The notes beneath the pieces were generated by a model. It saw nothing but the letters and a program-made list of their open reading frames with translations, searched no databases and was not told the DNA's origin. From the IMG/VR virus record IMGVR_UViG_2623620505_000002: 47,971 nucleotides of DNA. The stretch is one strand, 5' to 3'. Numbering within the stretch: the first letter of the stretch is position 1; every line of letters starts with the position of its first letter. Made by a program: the position numbers and the translations under genes. This DNA comes from a virus (Duplodnaviria > Heunggongvirae > Uroviricota > Caudoviricetes). This document shows positions 43,280-47,971 of the stretch, one piece after another.

Positions 43280-45577
43280 ATGGCAGTAAAGATTTCAGGC
43301 GTGCTTAAAGACGGTGCAGGTAAACCGGTACAGAACTGCACAATTCAGCTGAAAGCAAAACGTAACAGCACCACGGTGGTGGTGAACACGGTGGCCTCAG
43401 AAAATCCGGATGAAGCCGGGCGTTACAGCATGGACGTTGAGTACGGTCAGTACAGCGTTGTTCTGTTGGTGGAAGGGTTCCCGCCGTCACATGCCGGGAC
43501 CATCACCGTGTATGAAGATTCTCAACCCGGTACGCTGAATGATTTTCTCGGTGCCATGACGGAGGATGATGCCCGTCCGGAGGCACTGCGCCGTTTTGAA
43601 CTGATGGTGGAAGAGGTGGCGCGTAACGCGTCCGCGGTGGCACAGAACACGGCAGCCGCGAAGAAGTCAGCCGGCGATGCCGGCACATCGGCCCGTGAGG
43701 CGGCAACCCATGCGACTGATGCTGCAGGCTCAGCACGCGCAGCCAGCACGTCAGCCGGGCAGGCCGCGTCGTCGGCACAGGAAGCGTCTTCCGGTGCAGA
43801 AACGGCATCAGTAAAGGCCACTGAGGCATCAAAAAGTGCAGCCGCTGCAGAGTCCTCGAAAAGCGCGGCGGCCACCAGTGCTGTTGCCGCGAAAACGTCA
43901 GAAACGAATGCGGCAGCGTCACAACAATCAGCCGCCACCTCAGCATCCACCGCGACCGCGAAAGCGTCAGAAGCTGCCACCTCAGCCCGTGAGGCGGAGG
44001 CCTCAAAAGAGGCAGCAAAATCATCAGAAACGAACGCATCATCAAGCGCCAGTGGTGCAGCCTCCTCGGCAACGGCGGCAGAAAATGCCGCGAAGGAGGC
44101 AAAAACATCCGAGATGAACGCCAGGTCTTCTGAAACGGCAGCGGCACAGAGCGCATCCACCGCGGCGGGCTATGAAGCAGCGGCGGCATCATTGGCCGGC
44201 GAGGCATTCGGTAAGGCGGAAGAGGCTGCAGGTAGTGCAGCGGTGGCAGTGCAGAGCAAAAGTTCTGCTGAGTCTGCAGCAACACGCGCAGAAAATGCGG
44301 CAAAACGGGCAGAGGAGATTGCATCTGCTGTGGGCCTGGAAGATGCCAGTACGACCACAAAGGGAGTTGTCAAGCTCAGTAACCGTACTGACAGCACTTC
44401 GCAGACAGAGGCCGCCACATCCCTTGCAGTCAGTAAGGTCATGAATGAGGTGAAGACAAAAGCGTCACTGGATAGTCCGGTCTTCACCGGTACCCCTATG
44501 ACACCGACACCACCGGACGATGCTTCAGGTCTGGAAACAGTGAATGCGGCGTTTGTCCGCAAACTGCTTGCTGCTCTTGTGGGTTCTTCTCCGGAAACCC
44601 TGGACACGCTGAACGAACTGGCGGAGGCGCTGGGTAATGACCCGGCGTTTTCCGTAACGATAATGAAGATGCTGGACGGAAAACAGCCTTTAAATCCCGT
44701 TCTGACTGCGTTAGGCCGTCTTCCATCCGGTGAAGATGGGTTTCCCAGTTTTAGCGGTAACGGGCAGTGTTCTCTGGCTCCTGTTTCTGAAAAAGGGAAA
44801 CAGCTGTTGTCACAATCCACAGCCGAAGAGATGTGTGACGTTCTGGGTATCAATGGAAATAGTGGAAACTCAGCAGCAGGCGGAAATTATGGGCTTCAGT
44901 CAGACATTTATGACAGAACGCAGGGGCGGGCCGCTGTTGCAGGAAGTCTGGGATTCGGGCATATCTTCACAAAAGGTGACGTTCTCAGCTTTTCGTCGAA
45001 GGAAGTGCTTCTTGACTGGATCTCAAATGCCACACCGGGGCGGTATACGGTCAGCGCTGACTGCGAAATTATACCGGAAGTACAGTTTACAGGTGTGATT
45101 GATTTATTTTTCGCTGATGAGATGCGGAATAACCTTACTGTCCCGCTGATGCTGAAGATGGCTGTTTTTTACGGGATGAACGGTGAACTGTATCGGGCAA
45201 CATACGATGCCATACATGGCCCTTCACTGAGTGAATGGGAGAAAATAAATATTGACCTGTATGATATTGCCAAAATCCTGAGCATGACCACAAACGATAA
45301 TTATGGTGATCCGTATGCTGGAAGCATAACACTGGCAGCCTTTAATAGCCGTGGCAGCACTAAAACAGCTAGCGTCGTACGAGGGCAATATTACCCGGGC
45401 TCCGTCCTTACTCCCGTGGTATTCAGTGTTCCGGATGGAGCATTATCGTCGCCGAAGATTGGGCTTTCTGGTACAGAGAAGCACACATTGCCGGGTGTTT
45501 ACCGTGCATTATCCGGAACTCCGGATTACACCGGAGAAGGTGAGTTTATTATTGCTGCTTTTATAAGGACGATGTGA
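43280..45577 (+). CDS. stf: Side tail fibre protein Stf with lambda-like N-terminus and a divergent C-terminal domain
   Basis: N-terminal ~330 aa align to lambda Stf (MAVKISGVLKDGAGKPVQNCTIQLKA ..., Ala/Ser-rich repeats); C-terminal ~300 aa unlike lambda Stf. Confidence 0.85.
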   Translation: MAVKISGVLKDGAGKPVQNCTIQLKAKRNSTTVVVNTVASENPDEAGRYSMDVEYGQYSVVLLVEGFPPSHAGTITVYEDSQPGTLNDFLGAMTEDDARPEALRRFELMVEEVARNASAVAQNTAAAKKSAGDAGTSAREAATHATDAAGSARAASTSAGQAASSAQEASSGAETASVKATEASKSAAAAESSKSAAATSAVAAKTSETNAAASQQSAATSASTATAKASEAATSAREAEASKEAAKSSETNASSSASGAASSATAAENAAKEAKTSEMNARSSETAAAQSASTAAGYEAAAASLAGEAFGKAEEAAGSAAVAVQSKSSAESAATRAENAAKRAEEIASAVGLEDASTTTKGVVKLSNRTDSTSQTEAATSLAVSKVMNEVKTKASLDSPVFTGTPMTPTPPDDASGLETVNAAFVRKLLAALVGSSPETLDTLNELAEALGNDPAFSVTIMKMLDGKQPLNPVLTALGRLPSGEDGFPSFSGNGQCSLAPVSEKGKQLLSQSTAEEMCDVLGINGNSGNSAAGGNYGLQSDIYDRTQGRAAVAGSLGFGHIFTKGDVLSFSSKEVLLDWISNATPGRYTVSADCEIIPEVQFTGVIDLFFADEMRNNLTVPLMLKMAVFYGMNGELYRATYDAIHGPSLSEWEKINIDLYDIAKILSMTTNDNYGDPYAGSITLAAFNSRGSTKTASVVRGQYYPGSVLTPVVFSVPDGALSSPKIGLSGTEKHTLPGVYRALSGTPDYTGEGEFIIAAFIRTM

Positions 45578-46140: not shown

Positions 46141-46324
46141 CAGAAGCTGCGGCATGTCGTATGCAAGAACGTACTACAGCTGGCTGACTTGCGTTCGATA
46201 GGAGCCTGTACATAGATTATATAATTACAGAGCGGATACTCAATGTTGGTATTATTTATTTTATATGAATTTGTCTGAAAATAGTCCTGAAATTATTTTT
46301 CTGCTGAAAGTATAGAACTCAAAA

Positions 46325-46350
46325 ACAAGCGCCATTTTACAGGCGCTTCA
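46325..46350 (-). terminator. Rho-independent terminator for the leftward membrane/TPR-like gene
   Basis: On the minus strand AAGCGCC tgtaaaat GGCGCTT followed by GTTTTT. Confidence 0.55.
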
Positions 46351-46365
46351 AAGAACAAGGATGGG

Positions 46366-47370
46366 CTAGTTTGCTTTGCTCCCAACCATCTCTCTGATTC
46401 TGGCTAACTCATCATCATTAAACAGATCCTGTATATCTGAATCCAAGCGCGCCAAAACTTTTTCTATGATTTTTTTCTGCAAGGGTTTATGCGCCTCTTT
46501 CTCTGGAGTAACAGTCAAAGCTTTCATAATGAAATCTTTAACTTCTTGTTCATCTTTATGCTGCTTAGATAGCAAAAGGTAACAACCCATGTTGTAAAGC
46601 AAGACTGGATTTGTTTTATCTTTCACTAATAATTTTTTAACAATTTCCAGCGCGCCTGCAATATCATCAATTCGCTTTAGGGTAAATGCTTTCAAAACCA
46701 TGAATCTGTCAAATGAATGATAGTCATCTTCTTCATTGATTTCTCTAAGCCCCTCATCTAAAAAAGCAAGGGCATCATTGTATTTCTTCTTAGAAGCTAG
46801 CTTATCTTCTTCAGTTGTTTTCTCACCATATCGCTGACCTGACTCTACAGCATCTTTAGCTTTCAAATACAGCAGTTCGAGCCTGATTTTTTTCTCATTG
46901 CTCTTGATTTGCTTATTCTCATTAACTAAAGCTTCGATAGAGTGTTTGGCTTCTTTTTGCTCCTGGCCAATCTCTTGCACCTGGCTCTGAAGAACTTTGT
47001 TTGCAATGTTATCAAGTAGCCCATAACCAAGATAGGAAGCTATGCCTGCAAGAGATATCAGCATGAACAACTGTTCAATGTATACGGCTGCTGTTGTATC
47101 GGCTAGCGGAAGCAAAAGTGACTGATAATTTAGATGTAGAAATGAAGCTATGAAGGGGACGCAGATAAAAGCAGCACCAATACCTATCATATGCGTGCTA
47201 CCAATGAACTTGTTGTCACTAGTATCGCTGTTTTTTCCAGTTCGAAGCGTGCTTCCGAGCAGAGCTCCCATCACTATTACTAAAGCGAGAAAAAGAAAAT
47301 TAAGAAGGGCTATCACAGATTTACTTGTCAAGACAGCCAGACAGAATTCGATTGTCATACTTTGGTCCAT
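46366..47370 (-). CDS. Membrane protein with three N-terminal helices and a coiled-coil/TPR-like cytoplasmic domain (b-region cargo)
   Basis: 334 aa; hydrophobic segments at about residues 18-40, 62-80 and 100-120; Lys/Glu-rich helical region and TPR-like repeats; markedly AT-rich; own terminator. Confidence 0.6.
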   Translation of the reverse strand: MDQSMTIEFCLAVLTSKSVIALLNFLFLALVIVMGALLGSTLRTGKNSDTSDNKFIGSTHMIGIGAAFICVPFIASFLHLNYQSLLLPLADTTAAVYIEQLFMLISLAGIASYLGYGLLDNIANKVLQSQVQEIGQEQKEAKHSIEALVNENKQIKSNEKKIRLELLYLKAKDAVESGQRYGEKTTEEDKLASKKKYNDALAFLDEGLREINEEDDYHSFDRFMVLKAFTLKRIDDIAGALEIVKKLLVKDKTNPVLLYNMGCYLLLSKQHKDEQEVKDFIMKALTVTPEKEAHKPLQKKIIEKVLARLDSDIQDLFNDDELARIREMVGSKAN

Positions 47371-47377
47371 AAAAAGC

Positions 47378-47485
47378 TAAGGGCGGTTAAAAACCGCCCT
47401 TGTGCACTCATATCCCGACTTCGGTGCTTTTAGAGCCTAATCAGAAATCCGGATGCTCATCAGAGAATCGAAAGTTTCTAATCAT
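47378..47485 (-). promoter_or_regulatory. 5' leader of the membrane/TPR-like gene: 14-codon ORF with perfect RBS followed by a hairpin and U-tract (attenuator-like)
   Basis: Minus strand: AGGAG, 6 nt, ATG ATT AGA AAC TTT CGA TTC TCT GAT GAG CAT CCG GAT TTC TGA (47485..47441); then AAGGGCGGTT ttt AACCGCCCTT (47401..47378) and AGCTTTTT directly before the ATG. Confidence 0.35.
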
Positions 47486-47971
47486 GCTTTACTCCTAGTT
47501 TGTTGGGTGTTGTTAACAGTATTCTCAAGTCTAATAGGGAATGTTGTTAAATTTTAAGCAATGCTTATGCATCGGTGTAACTATAACTTTATCTGTTGAC
47601 TTTCGCAACCTCCGCTAACGACAAGGGATAGCACGAGTGCAACACTTTTTTGCATCGACTTCACGATATCATTTTCCCCTTGGGGCGGGAATTGATTTTT
47701 GTTTGTTGATGAAAACAGGAGAGGTTATAGATATAACACCTTGCCTTCATGCAGTTTGTGCTGTGGTTGTGTAGGCTCTGGTTGTACGTTCTTCATTGTG
47801 CGCGAACACACCCAGACTGAATAATCGCTGGATTGAAATGTTCGGGTATTGCAGGCGTATGATATGCCGTGGTGGGGCGGTTTTGAATCATGTGCATGGG
47901 ATGTGGCAAGCCTGATGGATTTTGCTGTGCTGGTGATGGTGTGTCTGCTGATCTGGCTGTTTATCCGTTAA

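What the first reader, a model, noticed from the sequence alone, without database searches (positions are those of the whole stretch)
46150..47520. AT-rich membrane/TPR-like cargo gene with an attenuator-like leader after the tail-fibre genes
A 334-aa protein (three N-terminal helices, then coiled-coil/TPR-like domain) is encoded opposite to the tail genes in the lambda b-region position, a classic moron and defence hotspot. Its GC content is clearly lower than the flanking lambda-like tail genes. It has its own terminator. Its 5' leader holds a 14-codon ORF with a perfect AGGAG RBS, then a 10-bp-stem hairpin with a U-tract abutting the start codon, which looks like a leader-peptide attenuator. 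I do not recognise it as any named exclusion or abortive-infection protein, so it is my top candidate for an undescribed phage-exclusion or membrane effector function.
Basis: partly seen in the sequence, partly recalled or inferred. Interest (0 to 1): 0.7.

Follow-up and report, generated by a model that had tools for sequence, protein, structure and literature searches.

The report
Mobile micro-peptide, terminator, membrane-TPR module
At the end of an E. coli prophage sits a small portable gene unit in which a deeply conserved 14-residue peptide gene, a transcription terminator and a rare membrane protein always travel together, an undescribed pairing that looks like a mobile-element conflict (defence or addiction) module whose control logic can now be tested.

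Summary
Window 46294-47675 (- strand) is a self-contained AT-rich cargo module at the right end of a lambdoid prophage of E. coli 1303. It holds a sigma-70 promoter, a 5' stem-loop and a strongly translated 14-codon ORF (MIRNFRFSDEHPDF). An intrinsic-terminator hairpin follows, then a weak RBS, a 330-aa protein (3 TM helices, long stalk helix, TPR domain) and a second terminator. The likely start is the second ATG (47358), not the one abutting the hairpin.

The peptide ORF plus terminator precedes every family member whose upstream DNA I could read. These include ~30%-identical members, other prophage types, a chromosomal island and a 3.99-kb Klebsiella plasmid type that has 69 records. The shared peptide core is D-E-x-P-x-[F/L/C]-stop. 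Within Enterobacterales its last seven codons change only synonymously (P~3e-5).

A classical attenuator is not supported. The terminator forms with probability 1.00 with or without a ribosome on the uORF, and main-RBS accessibility does not shift.

My best reading (~0.4) is a two-product module. A leaky terminator keeps the peptide in excess over a scarce membrane effector, as in type III toxin-antitoxin and microcin C operons, and the peptide is probably the TPR domain's ligand. The main rival (~0.3) is a cis-acting ribosome-arrest peptide. Function is untested. No defence model, Rfam family or paper matches.

The parts
46294..47675 (-). Whole portable module (promoter to downstream terminator), as delimited by homology
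   Evidence: About 90% identical block shared with two other E. coli genomes, where it lies between tRNA-Ser attL and int of a different lambdoid prophage. tfa homology ends at about 46186. The widespread lambda-like hypothetical gene resumes at about 47780.
47580..47608 (-). Sigma-70-type promoter, TTGCGA-17-TATAGT
   Evidence: Scan hit. The motif GTTGCGAAAGTCAACAGATAAAGTTATAGTT is conserved in L002, L004, L005, L020, L024 and L026, and TTGCAC..TATAGT in L011/L012. By eye, the plasmid L042 has TTGTGA-17-TATATT in the equivalent place (sequence).
47558..47573 (-). 5'-terminal stem-loop of the leader transcript (GAUGC / GCAUU)
   Evidence: It covaries between loci: GATGC/GCATC, GGTGC/GCACC, AGCC/GGCT, TGCAT/ATGCA, ATGCT/AGCAT, GCAAGC/GCTTGC. 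A role as an mRNA-stabilising 5' hairpin is inferred.
47492..47496 (-). Shine-Dalgarno AGGAG of the peptide ORF
   Evidence: Read directly. Binding to the anti-SD is -5.1 to -8.9 kcal/mol in all 15 leaders. This is stronger than the main ORF's SD (-2.4 to -5.9) in every one of the 15.
47441..47485 (-). 14-codon ORF encoding MIRNFRFSDEHPDF plus TGA
   Evidence: Present in all loci. In codons 8-14 all 6 derived states are synonymous, P~2.8e-5. Distant versions are MRKFIVSDEHPDF, MKKIKLHDERPDL, MNAFIKLDEWPIF and ..NVTFCDEIPNC.
47402..47440 (-). Spacer; begins with the conserved non-coding UUAGGCU and contains a strand that pairs with the uORF's last codons
   Evidence: Length varies from 14 to 71 nt between loci. 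The duplex with uORF codons 9-14 beats shuffles at p<0.1 in 10 of 12 leaders. Its function is unknown.
47369..47401 (-). Intrinsic-terminator-like hairpin (47401..47379, 10 bp, 6 GC) plus T-rich tail AGCTTTTTAT
   Evidence: Scan hit. Hairpins are -12.6 to -17.5 kcal/mol in all 15 leaders. Compensatory changes are seen: GGGCGG/CCGCCC, GGGCGA/TCGCCC and GGGCGT/ACGCCC. Stems are entirely different in L022, L042, L038 and L040, at the same position and with a T tract.
46366..47358 (-). Main ORF, 330 aa (334 aa if started at 47370)
   Evidence: ORF list. The RefSeq start is 47358. Homologs place the SD and ATG at this position. The family is tiny: 13 cluster representatives below 1e-30 among 1.84 billion.
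47014..47316 (-). Three-TM N-terminal domain (aa 15-115), the most conserved part of the protein; remote YLATT-like
   Evidence: Hydropathy peaks at aa 15-33, 58-76 and 97-115. K/R residues occur only in loop 1, which implies an N-out, C-in topology (inference). Pfam YLATT E=2.9e-4, 21.1 bits against a cut-off of 26.7; 6 of 18 family members hit it. Invariant G31 G35 G59 F64 P68 F69 L100 G105 Y109 G111.
46825..47013 (-). Long stalk helix / coiled-coil continuing from TM3 (aa 116-178)
   Evidence: The AF2 model has a single helix over residues 90-178, with pLDDT rising to 87-97 after residue 140.
46372..46812 (-). Cytoplasmic TPR-fold domain (aa 183-329)
46317..46348 (-). Downstream terminator of the module (AAGCGCC..GGCGCTT plus GTTTTTGAGT)
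   Evidence: Scan hit 18 nt after the stop codon. It lies inside the block shared with L002/L003.

Best explanation
This is a horizontally mobile two-product module, not a single gene with a classical attenuator.

One constitutive promoter makes a leader RNA whose first cistron is a strongly translated 13-14-codon ORF. Its product is a soluble peptide ending D-E-x-P-x-Phe/Leu/Cys-COOH. Most transcripts then stop at the intrinsic terminator. A minority read through into the weakly translated second cistron, an inner-membrane protein with three TM helices, a stalk helix and a cytoplasmic TPR domain. The terminator therefore fixes a high peptide-to-protein ratio. Terminators between toxI and toxN in type III toxin-antitoxin/Abi loci, and between mccA and mccB in the microcin C operon, do the same job.

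I infer that the peptide is the cognate ligand of the TPR domain and holds the YLATT-like membrane domain inactive. Short peptides turn over quickly. Any event that stops new synthesis, such as phage-induced shut-off or loss of the plasmid or prophage, would then free the membrane domain to damage the membrane. The outcome would be abortive infection, exclusion or post-segregational killing.

Shown: the anatomy; peptide-level purifying selection; a structure-conserved terminator; strict co-occurrence; carriage on mobile elements; the TPR fold; and the absence of any RNA switch.
Inferred: a leaky terminator; peptide-TPR binding; toxicity of the membrane domain; and the conflict function.
For: The peptide ORF and terminator were present in every family locus whose upstream DNA was read: 15 leader types, with protein identity down to 29-30%, from prophages, a chromosomal island and a ColE1-type plasmid. 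Selection acts on the peptide rather than the RNA. All 6 derived states in codons 8-14 are synonymous, P~3e-5. The uORF-spanning hairpin shows no consistent covariation and is broken in L022, where the peptide is still intact.

The terminator is conserved as a structure, with compensatory and wholesale stem replacements. No switch was found. P(terminator)=1.00 with and without ribosome masking in 12/12 leaders, and main-RBS accessibility does not change consistently in 15/15. The uORF SD is stronger than the main SD in every one of the 15 leaders.

The leader is never found without the gene or in front of another gene. The C-terminal domain has a TPR fold whose structural neighbours include receptors for small peptides or C-terminal peptides. 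By the positive-inside rule it is cytoplasmic, in the same compartment as the peptide. The module is the main cargo of a 3.99-kb plasmid type with 69 records and sits at prophage extremities.

Architectural precedents: type III TA (PMC5086642) and microcin C (PMC4231749).

Against: I know of no described 13-14-aa peptide antitoxin; this is from my own knowledge, with no literature support found. Peptide-receptor pairs usually diversify, whereas this peptide core is conserved more deeply than the protein. That pattern fits a universal target such as the ribosome at least as well. Some two-fold synonymous sites of the uORF never vary, and the uORF's 3' codons pair with the spacer better than chance. 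Both point to an RNA-level role that this model does not explain. Terminator leakiness is assumed, not measured.
Confidence: 0.4

Rival explanations
1. Cis-acting regulatory nascent peptide. In this reading the 14-residue peptide arrests or destabilises its own ribosome at or just before the stop codon. It may do so constitutively or in response to a metabolite, an antibiotic or a phage-induced change. Ribosome occupancy then changes how much transcription passes the terminator into the membrane-protein gene. The logic could be ribosome-induced termination, as at mccA, or stall-induced read-through.
For: The layout of SD-uORF, terminator and gene is that of leader-peptide attenuators. Conservation is concentrated in the residues nearest the peptidyl-transferase centre and sits at a fixed distance from the stop codon: D-E-x-P-x-x-stop in all groups. 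The motif is conserved across very different hosts (GC 32-54%), as expected if the target is the ribosome. Length is tightly held at 13-14 codons in 14 of 15 leaders (the annotated uORF start in L040 gives 17); the known stop-codon arrest peptides PepNL and NanCL are 14 aa (PMC11890864). Even for PepNL, the RNA link to the downstream gene could not be found by folding. An acidic-plus-proline composition recalls intrinsic ribosome destabilisation sequences (bioRxiv 2021.02.02.429294 abstract). Invariant synonymous sites and the pairing between the uORF 3' end and the spacer indicate RNA-level constraints.
Against: No transduction path was found. The terminator is predicted to form with P=1.00 with or without ribosome masking in 12/12 leaders, and main-RBS accessibility is unchanged across all 15 leader types. 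A candidate 5-6-bp antiterminator (post-stop GCUCU with AGGGC) exists only in some Enterobacterial leaders and, by eye, is absent from L022, L038, L040 and L042 (sequences). The distance from stop codon to hairpin varies from 14 to 71 nt, too far for steric effects and too short in several loci for a Rho loading site. The motif matches no known arrest peptide (PepNL residues).
Confidence: 0.3
2. The peptide and the membrane protein form a non-toxic functional pair expressed from the lysogen or plasmid. An example would be a superinfection-exclusion or envelope-modifying complex in which the peptide is a stoichiometric cofactor rather than an inhibitor. The terminator only tunes expression levels.
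For: All the co-occurrence and anatomy evidence applies here as well. The module sits at lysogen-expressed moron positions. In Proteus and Providencia prophages it lies beside Arc/Mnt/Ant immunity-region genes. From my own knowledge, P22 carries its exclusion gene sieA in that region.
Against: Nothing distinguishes this reading from the inhibitor version in silico. A cofactor needed 1:1 would not obviously require a terminator that lowers the protein relative to the peptide. No similarity to known exclusion proteins was found.
Confidence: 0.15
3. The conserved element is an RNA, not a peptide. It could be a small RNA or structured leader (the ~55-nt hairpin spanning the 'uORF'), and the ORF would be incidental.
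For: The uORF region folds into a stable hairpin in which the start-codon region pairs with the stop-codon region and the conserved UUAGGCU. Several synonymous sites are invariant.
Against: Hairpin pairs are either invariant or break when they vary (pair 31-51 appears as CG, AA, AG, AT and CA). L022 disrupts many pairs yet keeps SDEHPDF. All changes in codons 8-14 are synonymous. Distant members keep the peptide motif with unrelated nucleotide sequences, and all have a good SD. No Rfam family matches.
Confidence: 0.04
4. Microcin-like arrangement. The peptide would be a bacteriocin precursor and the membrane protein its immunity or export factor.
For: A small peptide gene followed by a terminator on small plasmids resembles mccA (PMC4231749). 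The module is carried on a small Klebsiella plasmid type.
Against: No modifying enzyme, ABC exporter or leader or signal sequence accompanies the module in any context, and the 3.99-kb plasmid has only Rop, an HTH protein and a 90-aa ORF besides it. The peptide is hydrophilic and acidic at its C-terminus. The protein has no transporter or enzyme domain.
Confidence: 0.04

Closest known systems
Type III toxin-antitoxin / abortive-infection loci (ToxIN, CptIN, TenpIN, AbiQ)
   Same: One promoter, an upstream antitoxin element, a Rho-independent terminator, then the downstream toxin gene. The terminator keeps the antitoxin in excess (PMC5086642). These loci are carried on plasmids and other mobile elements and have an anti-phage role.
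   Different: There the antitoxin is a repetitive RNA processed by an endoribonuclease toxin. Here the upstream element is a translated 13-14-aa peptide with no tandem repeats, and the downstream protein is a 3TM-TPR membrane protein with no nuclease fold.
Microcin C operon mccA-terminator-mccB
   Same: A tiny, strongly translated peptide ORF is followed by an intrinsic terminator. This produces an abundant short transcript and a rare long one and so sets the peptide-to-protein ratio (PMC4231749).
   Different: MccA is an enzyme substrate and the operon encodes modifying enzymes and an exporter; none is present here. In mcc, upstream RNA attenuates the terminator unless a ribosome is bound, whereas no such competition is predicted here.
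Stop-codon ribosome-arrest leader peptides (TnaC, SpeFL, PepNL, NanCL)
   Same: A short uORF of about 14 codons upstream of a regulated gene, with peptide-level conservation strongest at the C-terminus and a fixed relation to the stop codon (PMC11890864).
   Different: There is no sequence resemblance (PepNL relies on Ile3, Leu4, Ile8, Tyr9 and Ile13). No arrest has been demonstrated. An unconditional intrinsic terminator with no alternative structure sits between the uORF and the gene.
RRNPP-type TPR receptors with adjacent peptide genes (Rap-Phr, PlcR-PapR, AimR-AimP)
   Different: RRNPP peptides are secreted, processed and re-imported. Their receptors are soluble regulators or phosphatases of Firmicutes, and the peptide gene usually lies downstream. 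Here the peptide has no signal sequence, the receptor is membrane-anchored, the hosts include Gram-negative Enterobacterales (the hosts of the distant metagenomic members are unknown), and a terminator separates the genes. The fold similarity is generic for TPR.
Pfam PF20303 YLATT (YEATS-Like-Associating Three TM)
   Same: A three-TM domain of similar length. The alignment covers model positions 3-101 of 107, and 6 of 18 family members hit it, best E=2.8e-5.
   Different: The window protein scores below Pfam's gathering threshold (21.1 against 26.7 bits), and I did not check the bit scores of the other five hits. No YEATS-like partner gene appears in any of the contexts examined. I could not find the paper that defines the family.

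Membership tests
Classical leader-peptide transcription attenuator (trp/his/pheA type; ARE-ABCF and erm/cat leaders) | Short translated leader ORF upstream of the regulated gene | tested here: met
   14-codon ORF with an AGGAG SD, conserved in all loci.
Classical leader-peptide transcription attenuator (trp/his/pheA type; ARE-ABCF and erm/cat leaders) | Intrinsic terminator between the leader ORF and the gene | tested here: met
   Hairpin plus T tract, conserved as a structure in 15 leader types. Its activity has not been measured.
Classical leader-peptide transcription attenuator (trp/his/pheA type; ARE-ABCF and erm/cat leaders) | Mutually exclusive antiterminator structure whose formation depends on ribosome position | tested here: not met
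   P(terminator)=1.00 free and ribosome-masked in 12/12 leaders, and no conserved competing helix. This is thermodynamic modelling only; kinetic effects were not modelled.
Classical leader-peptide transcription attenuator (trp/his/pheA type; ARE-ABCF and erm/cat leaders) | Regulatory codons (runs of one amino acid), or a known drug- or metabolite-dependent stall motif | tested here: not met
   No amino-acid runs. The motif D-E-x-P-x-F matches nothing in the literature search.
Ribosome arrest peptide acting at the stop codon (TnaC / SpeFL / PepNL class) | Peptide-sequence-dependent conservation, strongest near the C-terminus | tested here: met
   Only synonymous change in the last 7 codons, and the core is kept in distant members.
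Ribosome arrest peptide acting at the stop codon (TnaC / SpeFL / PepNL class) | Demonstrated ribosome stalling (toeprint, peptidyl-tRNA accumulation) | not testable with these tools
   Needs in vitro translation with toeprinting, or ribosome profiling.
Type III toxin-antitoxin system | Promoter, antitoxin, Rho-independent terminator and toxin in that gene order | tested here: met
   The same order is seen, with a peptide ORF in the antitoxin position (definition from PMC5086642).
Type III toxin-antitoxin system | Antitoxin is a tandem array of RNA repeats | tested here: not met
   By eye, no tandem repeats occur in the leader sequences read; no repeat-finding tool was run. The upstream element is a translated ORF under peptide-level selection.
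Type III toxin-antitoxin system | Toxin is a ToxN/AbiQ-type endoribonuclease | tested here: not met
   The protein is 3TM plus TPR, with no nuclease family or fold.
Pfam YLATT (PF20303) | Score above Pfam's gathering threshold | tested here: not met
   The window protein scores 21.1 bits against a cut-off of 26.7. The best E-value in the family is 2.8e-5, and 6 of 18 members hit at E<=0.01. I did not check whether any of those other hits clears the cut-off.
Pfam YLATT (PF20303) | Genomic association with a YEATS-like domain protein (from the family's name) | tested here: not met
   No conserved partner protein gene is present in any context; the only constant neighbour is the peptide ORF.
TPR fold | Tandem helix-turn-helix repeats forming a right-handed superhelix | tested here: met
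Carboxylate-clamp TPR (Hop/CHIP/FKBP/Sec72 type, binding acidic C-terminal peptides) | Conserved Lys/Asn/Asn/Lys/Arg clamp residues on the concave face | tested here: inconclusive
   Family invariants include K228, N256 and K274, with R229 nearly invariant. The profile alignment to HOP TPR1 (sequence given from memory) covered one repeat at 3% probability. Foldseek hits to clamp TPRs have E of only 0.01-0.1.
Known anti-phage defence systems (PADLOC-DB v2.0.0) | Match to a defence protein model | tested here: not met
   No hit for the window protein even at E<=10. Among 18 family members there are only two isolated weak hits, PbeC at 0.005 and PycC at 0.04. The database dates from 2023.

The most novel reading that the evidence does not exclude
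This would be a new class of mobile-element conflict module. A ribosomally made, unmodified 13-14-residue cytoplasmic peptide (core D-E-x-P-x-Phe-COOH) would be the dedicated partner of a membrane-anchored TPR receptor fused to a YLATT-like three-TM effector. A built-in intrinsic terminator would set the ratio of the two products. In effect this is a 'peptide-antitoxin' toxin-antitoxin/abortive-infection system, possibly doubling as a translation-status sensor because the peptide is also a nascent-chain regulator.
Probability: 0.3. Interest if true: 0.85.

Novelty: new variant of a known kind. Interest (0 to 1): 0.72.

Why it matters
If the peptide is a trans-acting inhibitor or ligand, this would be the smallest protein antitoxin-like component that I know of. 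It would also be the first peptide-TPR receptor pair I know of that works entirely inside a Gram-negative cell. That would extend both the toxin-antitoxin/abortive-infection repertoire and the RRNPP-like idea beyond Firmicutes.

If the peptide acts in cis, D-E-x-P-x-F-stop would be a new ribosome-arrest or ribosome-destabilising motif conserved across distant bacteria. It would also control a mobile-element effector without a recognisable RNA switch, which is the same unsolved problem as for PepNL.

Either way the module is compact (1.4 kb) and occurs naturally on a 4-kb plasmid type with 69 clinical, food and animal Klebsiella records. It is also rare in E. coli (3 of 5,426 complete genomes). 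That makes it easy to clone and to test for phage defence, plasmid stabilisation and membrane toxicity.

Tried and rejected
(1) Classical antiterminator. I folded 12 leaders free and with the uORF 3' end plus 15 nt masked, and also truncated before the 3' arm. The terminator always wins. A 5-6-bp pairing of the post-stop GCUCU with the terminator's AGGGC appears in some Enterobacterial leaders but, by eye, not in L022, L038, L040 or L042.

(2) Translational relay. Main-RBS accessibility is unchanged by masking the uORF.

(3) RNA-only element. The uORF-spanning hairpin is not supported by covariation, and there is no Rfam match even at E<=10.

(4) A promoter between the hairpin and the main ATG (leaderless or own transcript). 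I judged this by eye; there is no room and no conserved hexamers.

(5) Rare-codon signal. The Arg codons AGA and CGA in the uORF are also the main ORF's usual choice.

(6) Leader used with other genes. It was never found apart from this family.

(7) Known defence, phage or NCBI families. None match.

(8) Structural homologs. Foldseek against PDB and BFVD gives only generic TPR at E>=0.01. The afdb50 library was unavailable.

(9) Sequence profile against PDB. Only designer PPR/TPR repeats and SRP72 are hit.

(10) GTDB species-representative genomes. Distant members are also absent from IMG/VR.

(11) Literature. Nothing for the motif, the accessions or YLATT, and the 2020 conflict-systems paper does not mention YLATT.

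(12) Resemblance of the peptide tail to the SSB C-terminal tip (DDDIPF, from memory). The order of Pro and the hydrophobic residue differs, so I did not pursue it.
Full report
**Where the window comes from**

The window is a lambdoid prophage of Escherichia coli 1303, a bovine mastitis isolate (NZ_CP009166.1). The match is 100% identical. The prophage ends next to potB. The finding lies after the tail genes J, a 765-aa side tail fibre and a DUF4376 tail-fibre assembly protein.

**Checking the observation**

- There is a 334-aa ORF at 46366..47370 on the minus strand.
- GC is 0.34-0.42 across it, against 0.45-0.65 in the tail genes.
- A terminator-like hairpin lies 18 nt after its stop codon (46348..46327).
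- Upstream, AGGAG (47496..47492) is followed after 6 nt by ATG 47485, and the ORF runs to TGA 47441, encoding MIRNFRFSDEHPDF.
- A 10-bp hairpin, AAGGGCGGTT/AACCGCCCTT (47401..47379), is followed by AGCTTTTTAT.

One detail needs correcting. In homologous loci the hairpin is followed by 16-30 nt that carry an AAGGA-type Shine-Dalgarno and then the start codon. That arrangement aligns with the second ATG of the window ORF at 47358, which is also RefSeq's start. The protein is therefore most likely 330 aa, and the hairpin does not touch its start codon.

**The unit is portable**

Only 3 of 5,426 complete E. coli genomes carry the gene. In the other two, a ~90% identical block corresponding to window 46294..47675 lies at the opposite extremity of a different lambdoid prophage, between the tRNA-Ser attachment site and int. 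The block includes the promoter, leader, gene and downstream terminator. Tail-fibre-assembly homology stops at about 46186. A hypothetical gene common to lambda-like phages resumes at about 47780. The 1.4-kb block is therefore an inserted moron.

**The protein**

The family is very small.
- Sixteen homologs down to 49% identity were found among 5.8 billion clusters, all from Enterobacterales.
- An exhaustive profile search of 1.84 billion representatives found only 13 below 1e-30, about a dozen of them full length at 26-38% identity.

Hydropathy shows three TM segments, at aa 15-33, 58-76 and 97-115. Lys/Arg residues occur only in the first loop. By the positive-inside rule this puts the N-terminus outside and the large C-terminal part in the cytoplasm (inference).

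The TM domain is the most conserved part of the protein. It has a sub-threshold similarity to Pfam YLATT (21.1 bits against a cut-off of 26.7), and 6 of 18 family members hit the model. PADLOC gives nothing for the window protein and only two isolated weak hits among 18 family members. PHROGs, NCBIfam and BFVD give nothing informative.

**The leader is the real finding**

I read the DNA upstream of every homolog I could reach. All Enterobacterial loci have the same small ORF: M-I-[R/M]-[N/K/T]-[F/L]-R-[F/Y]-S-D-E-H-P-D-F-stop. The most divergent of them, with a 49%-identical protein, has M-R-K-F-I-V-S-D-E-H-P-D-F-stop.

Against the window, the uORF is 0.80-0.98 identical at nucleotide level. 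The coding sequence is 0.63-0.91 identical, the 5' UTR 0.54-0.84 and the spacer 0.51-0.89. In the last seven codons all six derived codon states are synonymous. If changes were random, the probability of that is about 3e-5. The stop codon alternates between TGA and TAA.

The architecture persists in much more distant members:
- A 29%-identical homolog on a chromosomal island has GGAG, MNAFIKLDEWPIF-stop, 18 nt, a GC hairpin with a T tract, and then the gene.
- A 30%-identical homolog from a 32%-GC organism has ..NVTFCDEIPNC-stop, a hairpin and T8.
- A 37.5%-identical homolog is the main cargo of a 3.99-kb ColE1-type Klebsiella pneumoniae plasmid type with 69 records. It has MKKIKLHDERPDL-stop, a hairpin and T6.

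The family-wide core is D-E-x-P-x-[F/L/C]-stop, preceded by a basic and hydrophobic N-terminal half. In 14 of the 15 leader types the ORF is 13-14 codons long; the annotated start in L040 gives 17.

**The hairpin behaves as a conserved terminator**

All 15 distinct leader types have a hairpin of -12.6 to -17.5 kcal/mol followed by a T-rich tail. Stems show compensatory changes: GGGCGG/CCGCCC, GGGCGA/TCGCCC and GGGCGT/ACGCCC. In four lineages the stem sequence is entirely different but sits at the same place.

The promoter TTGCGA-17-TATAGT (47608..47580) is conserved, and so is a covarying stem-loop at the predicted 5' end of the transcript. The uORF's Shine-Dalgarno is stronger than that of the main ORF in every one of the 15 leaders: -5.1 to -8.9 against -2.4 to -5.9 kcal/mol. 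The leader never occurs without this gene family or in front of another gene.

**Peptide or RNA?**

The uORF region can fold into a ~55-nt hairpin in which the start-codon region pairs with the stop codon and a conserved post-stop UUAGGCU. Its pairs are either invariant or break when they vary. The most divergent Enterobacterial leader disrupts many of them while keeping SDEHPDF. Distant members keep the peptide motif with unrelated nucleotides. Rfam has no match.

The conserved entity is therefore the peptide. Some RNA-level constraint remains, however. Three two-fold synonymous sites never vary. The uORF's last codons pair with the spacer better than shuffled controls in 10 of 12 leaders, and that pairing tracks the third base of the Pro codon. 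I cannot explain that helix.

**How it works: what was tested**

A classical attenuator needs an antiterminator that competes with the terminator, depending on where the ribosome sits. In 12 of 12 leaders the terminator stem has probability 1.00 both free and with the uORF's 3' end plus 15 nt masked. A short pairing between the post-stop GCUCU and the terminator's AGGGC appears in some Enterobacterial leaders. By eye, it is absent from L022 and from the three distant lineages.

The stop-to-hairpin distance varies from 14 to 71 nt. That is too far for steric interference and, in several loci, too short for a Rho loading site. On read-through transcripts, main-RBS accessibility does not change consistently when the uORF is masked. 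Thermodynamic modelling therefore finds no path from the uORF ribosome to the downstream gene. Kinetic or factor-dependent paths cannot be excluded.

**Best explanation (confidence about 0.4)**

The module makes two products in a fixed ratio. Most transcripts end at the terminator and encode only the peptide. A minority read through and give a little of the membrane protein. This logic is documented for two systems:
- In type III toxin-antitoxin/abortive-infection loci, a Rho-independent terminator separates the upstream antitoxin from the toxin gene (PMC5086642).
- In the microcin C operon, a terminator after the 7-codon mccA gives an abundant short transcript and a rare long one (PMC4231749).

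I infer that the peptide is the ligand of the cytoplasmic TPR domain and keeps the YLATT-like membrane domain inactive. Because short peptides are unstable, a stop in synthesis would release the effector. Phage shut-off, or loss of the plasmid or prophage, would have that effect. Carriage at prophage extremities, and as the main cargo of a 4-kb plasmid, fits a defence, exclusion or addiction role.

None of the binding, toxicity or phenotype steps is shown. The attempt to match carboxylate-clamp residues was inconclusive.

**Main rival (about 0.3)**

The peptide may be a cis-acting arrest or ribosome-destabilising nascent chain. Several observations favour it:
- Conservation is strongest next to the stop codon.
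- Length is held at 13-14 codons in 14 of the 15 leaders, and the motif is kept across hosts of very different GC content.
- PepNL and NanCL are precedents, and PepNL's link to its downstream gene is also unexplained by RNA folding (PMC11890864).

Against it, no transduction path was found here. A mixed model, in which a nascent-chain pause also yields a functional peptide, is possible.

Minor rivals are a non-toxic peptide-protein complex for exclusion (0.15), an RNA-only element (0.04) and a microcin-like system (0.04).

**Novelty and verdict**

I found no family, Rfam model, defence-system model or paper that describes the protein, the peptide motif or the module. Its parts resemble known kinds: leader peptides, terminator-separated TA loci and peptide-TPR pairs. 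It meets the defining features of none of them, so I rate it a new variant of a known kind.

The cargo nature and the conserved leader are right. The trp-style attenuator is not supported. The defence function is still a hypothesis. Interest is high because the module is compact, conserved in an unusual way, present on a common small Klebsiella plasmid type, and open to direct experimental test.

Noticed in passing
window 47558-47573 (- strand): A stem-loop at the predicted 5' end of the leader transcript, just after the -10 box, covaries clearly between loci: GATGC/GCATC, GGTGC/GCACC, AGCC/GGCT, TGCAT/ATGCA, ATGCT/AGCAT, and GCAAGC/GCTTGC in the plasmid. It is probably an mRNA-stabilising 5' hairpin.
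   Followed up: partly
window 43280-45577 (+): The side tail fibre is an intact 765-aa ORF in the window. RefSeq annotates only its first ~1.1 kb, as a partial pseudogene 'missing C-terminus'. This may be an annotation artefact caused by the Ala/Ser-rich repetitive middle region.
   Followed up: no
window 47727-47971 (+): The last ORF of the window is a frameshifted copy of a hypothetical gene that follows the tail-fibre genes in about 1,800 E. coli genomes and in lambda-like phages (ev243, 4A7, PhiR47_1 and others). The cargo module is inserted between tfa and this gene.
   Followed up: partly
window 47674-47691 (+): A terminator-like hairpin on the opposite strand (TTCCCCTTGGGGCGGGAA + TTGATTTTTG) lies exactly at the right-hand homology boundary of the module. 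A related palindrome is present at the same place in the other E. coli prophages. It may insulate the module from antisense transcription or mark the recombination joint.
   Followed up: no
L001 (NZ_CP009166.1 1366963-1368946), just beyond the window end: The prophage abuts potB and potA, and no potC or potD is annotated in the next 8 kb on that side. The prophage therefore seems to interrupt or border the potABCD operon.
   Followed up: no
L004, L020, L021, L024, L026, L011 (flanks of the homologs): In other hosts the module repeatedly sits beside umuDC-like genes (IMS + Peptidase_S24), SRAP/YedK and DinI. In Proteus and Providencia prophages (L008-L010, L017) it lies next to Arc/Mnt/Ant immunity-region genes. 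These are all typical lysogen-expressed cargo positions.
   Followed up: partly
L042 (NZ_CP086463.1, whole 3,989-bp plasmid): 69 small non-mobilizable ColRNAI-type Klebsiella pneumoniae plasmids, from human blood, urine and pus and from swine and food, carry the module as their main cargo. Their only other genes are Rop, an HTH protein and a Cys-rich 90-aa ORF. The module's gene has 37% GC against 49% for the rest of the plasmid.
   Followed up: partly
window 47402-47440 and uORF 47441-47485 (- strand): The non-coding heptamer right after the uORF stop (UUAGGCU/UUAAGCU) is conserved among most Enterobacterial leaders but not in the most divergent one, L022. The uORF's last codons pair with a movable site in the spacer, tracking the Pro codon's third base. 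The purpose of this helix is unexplained.
   Followed up: partly
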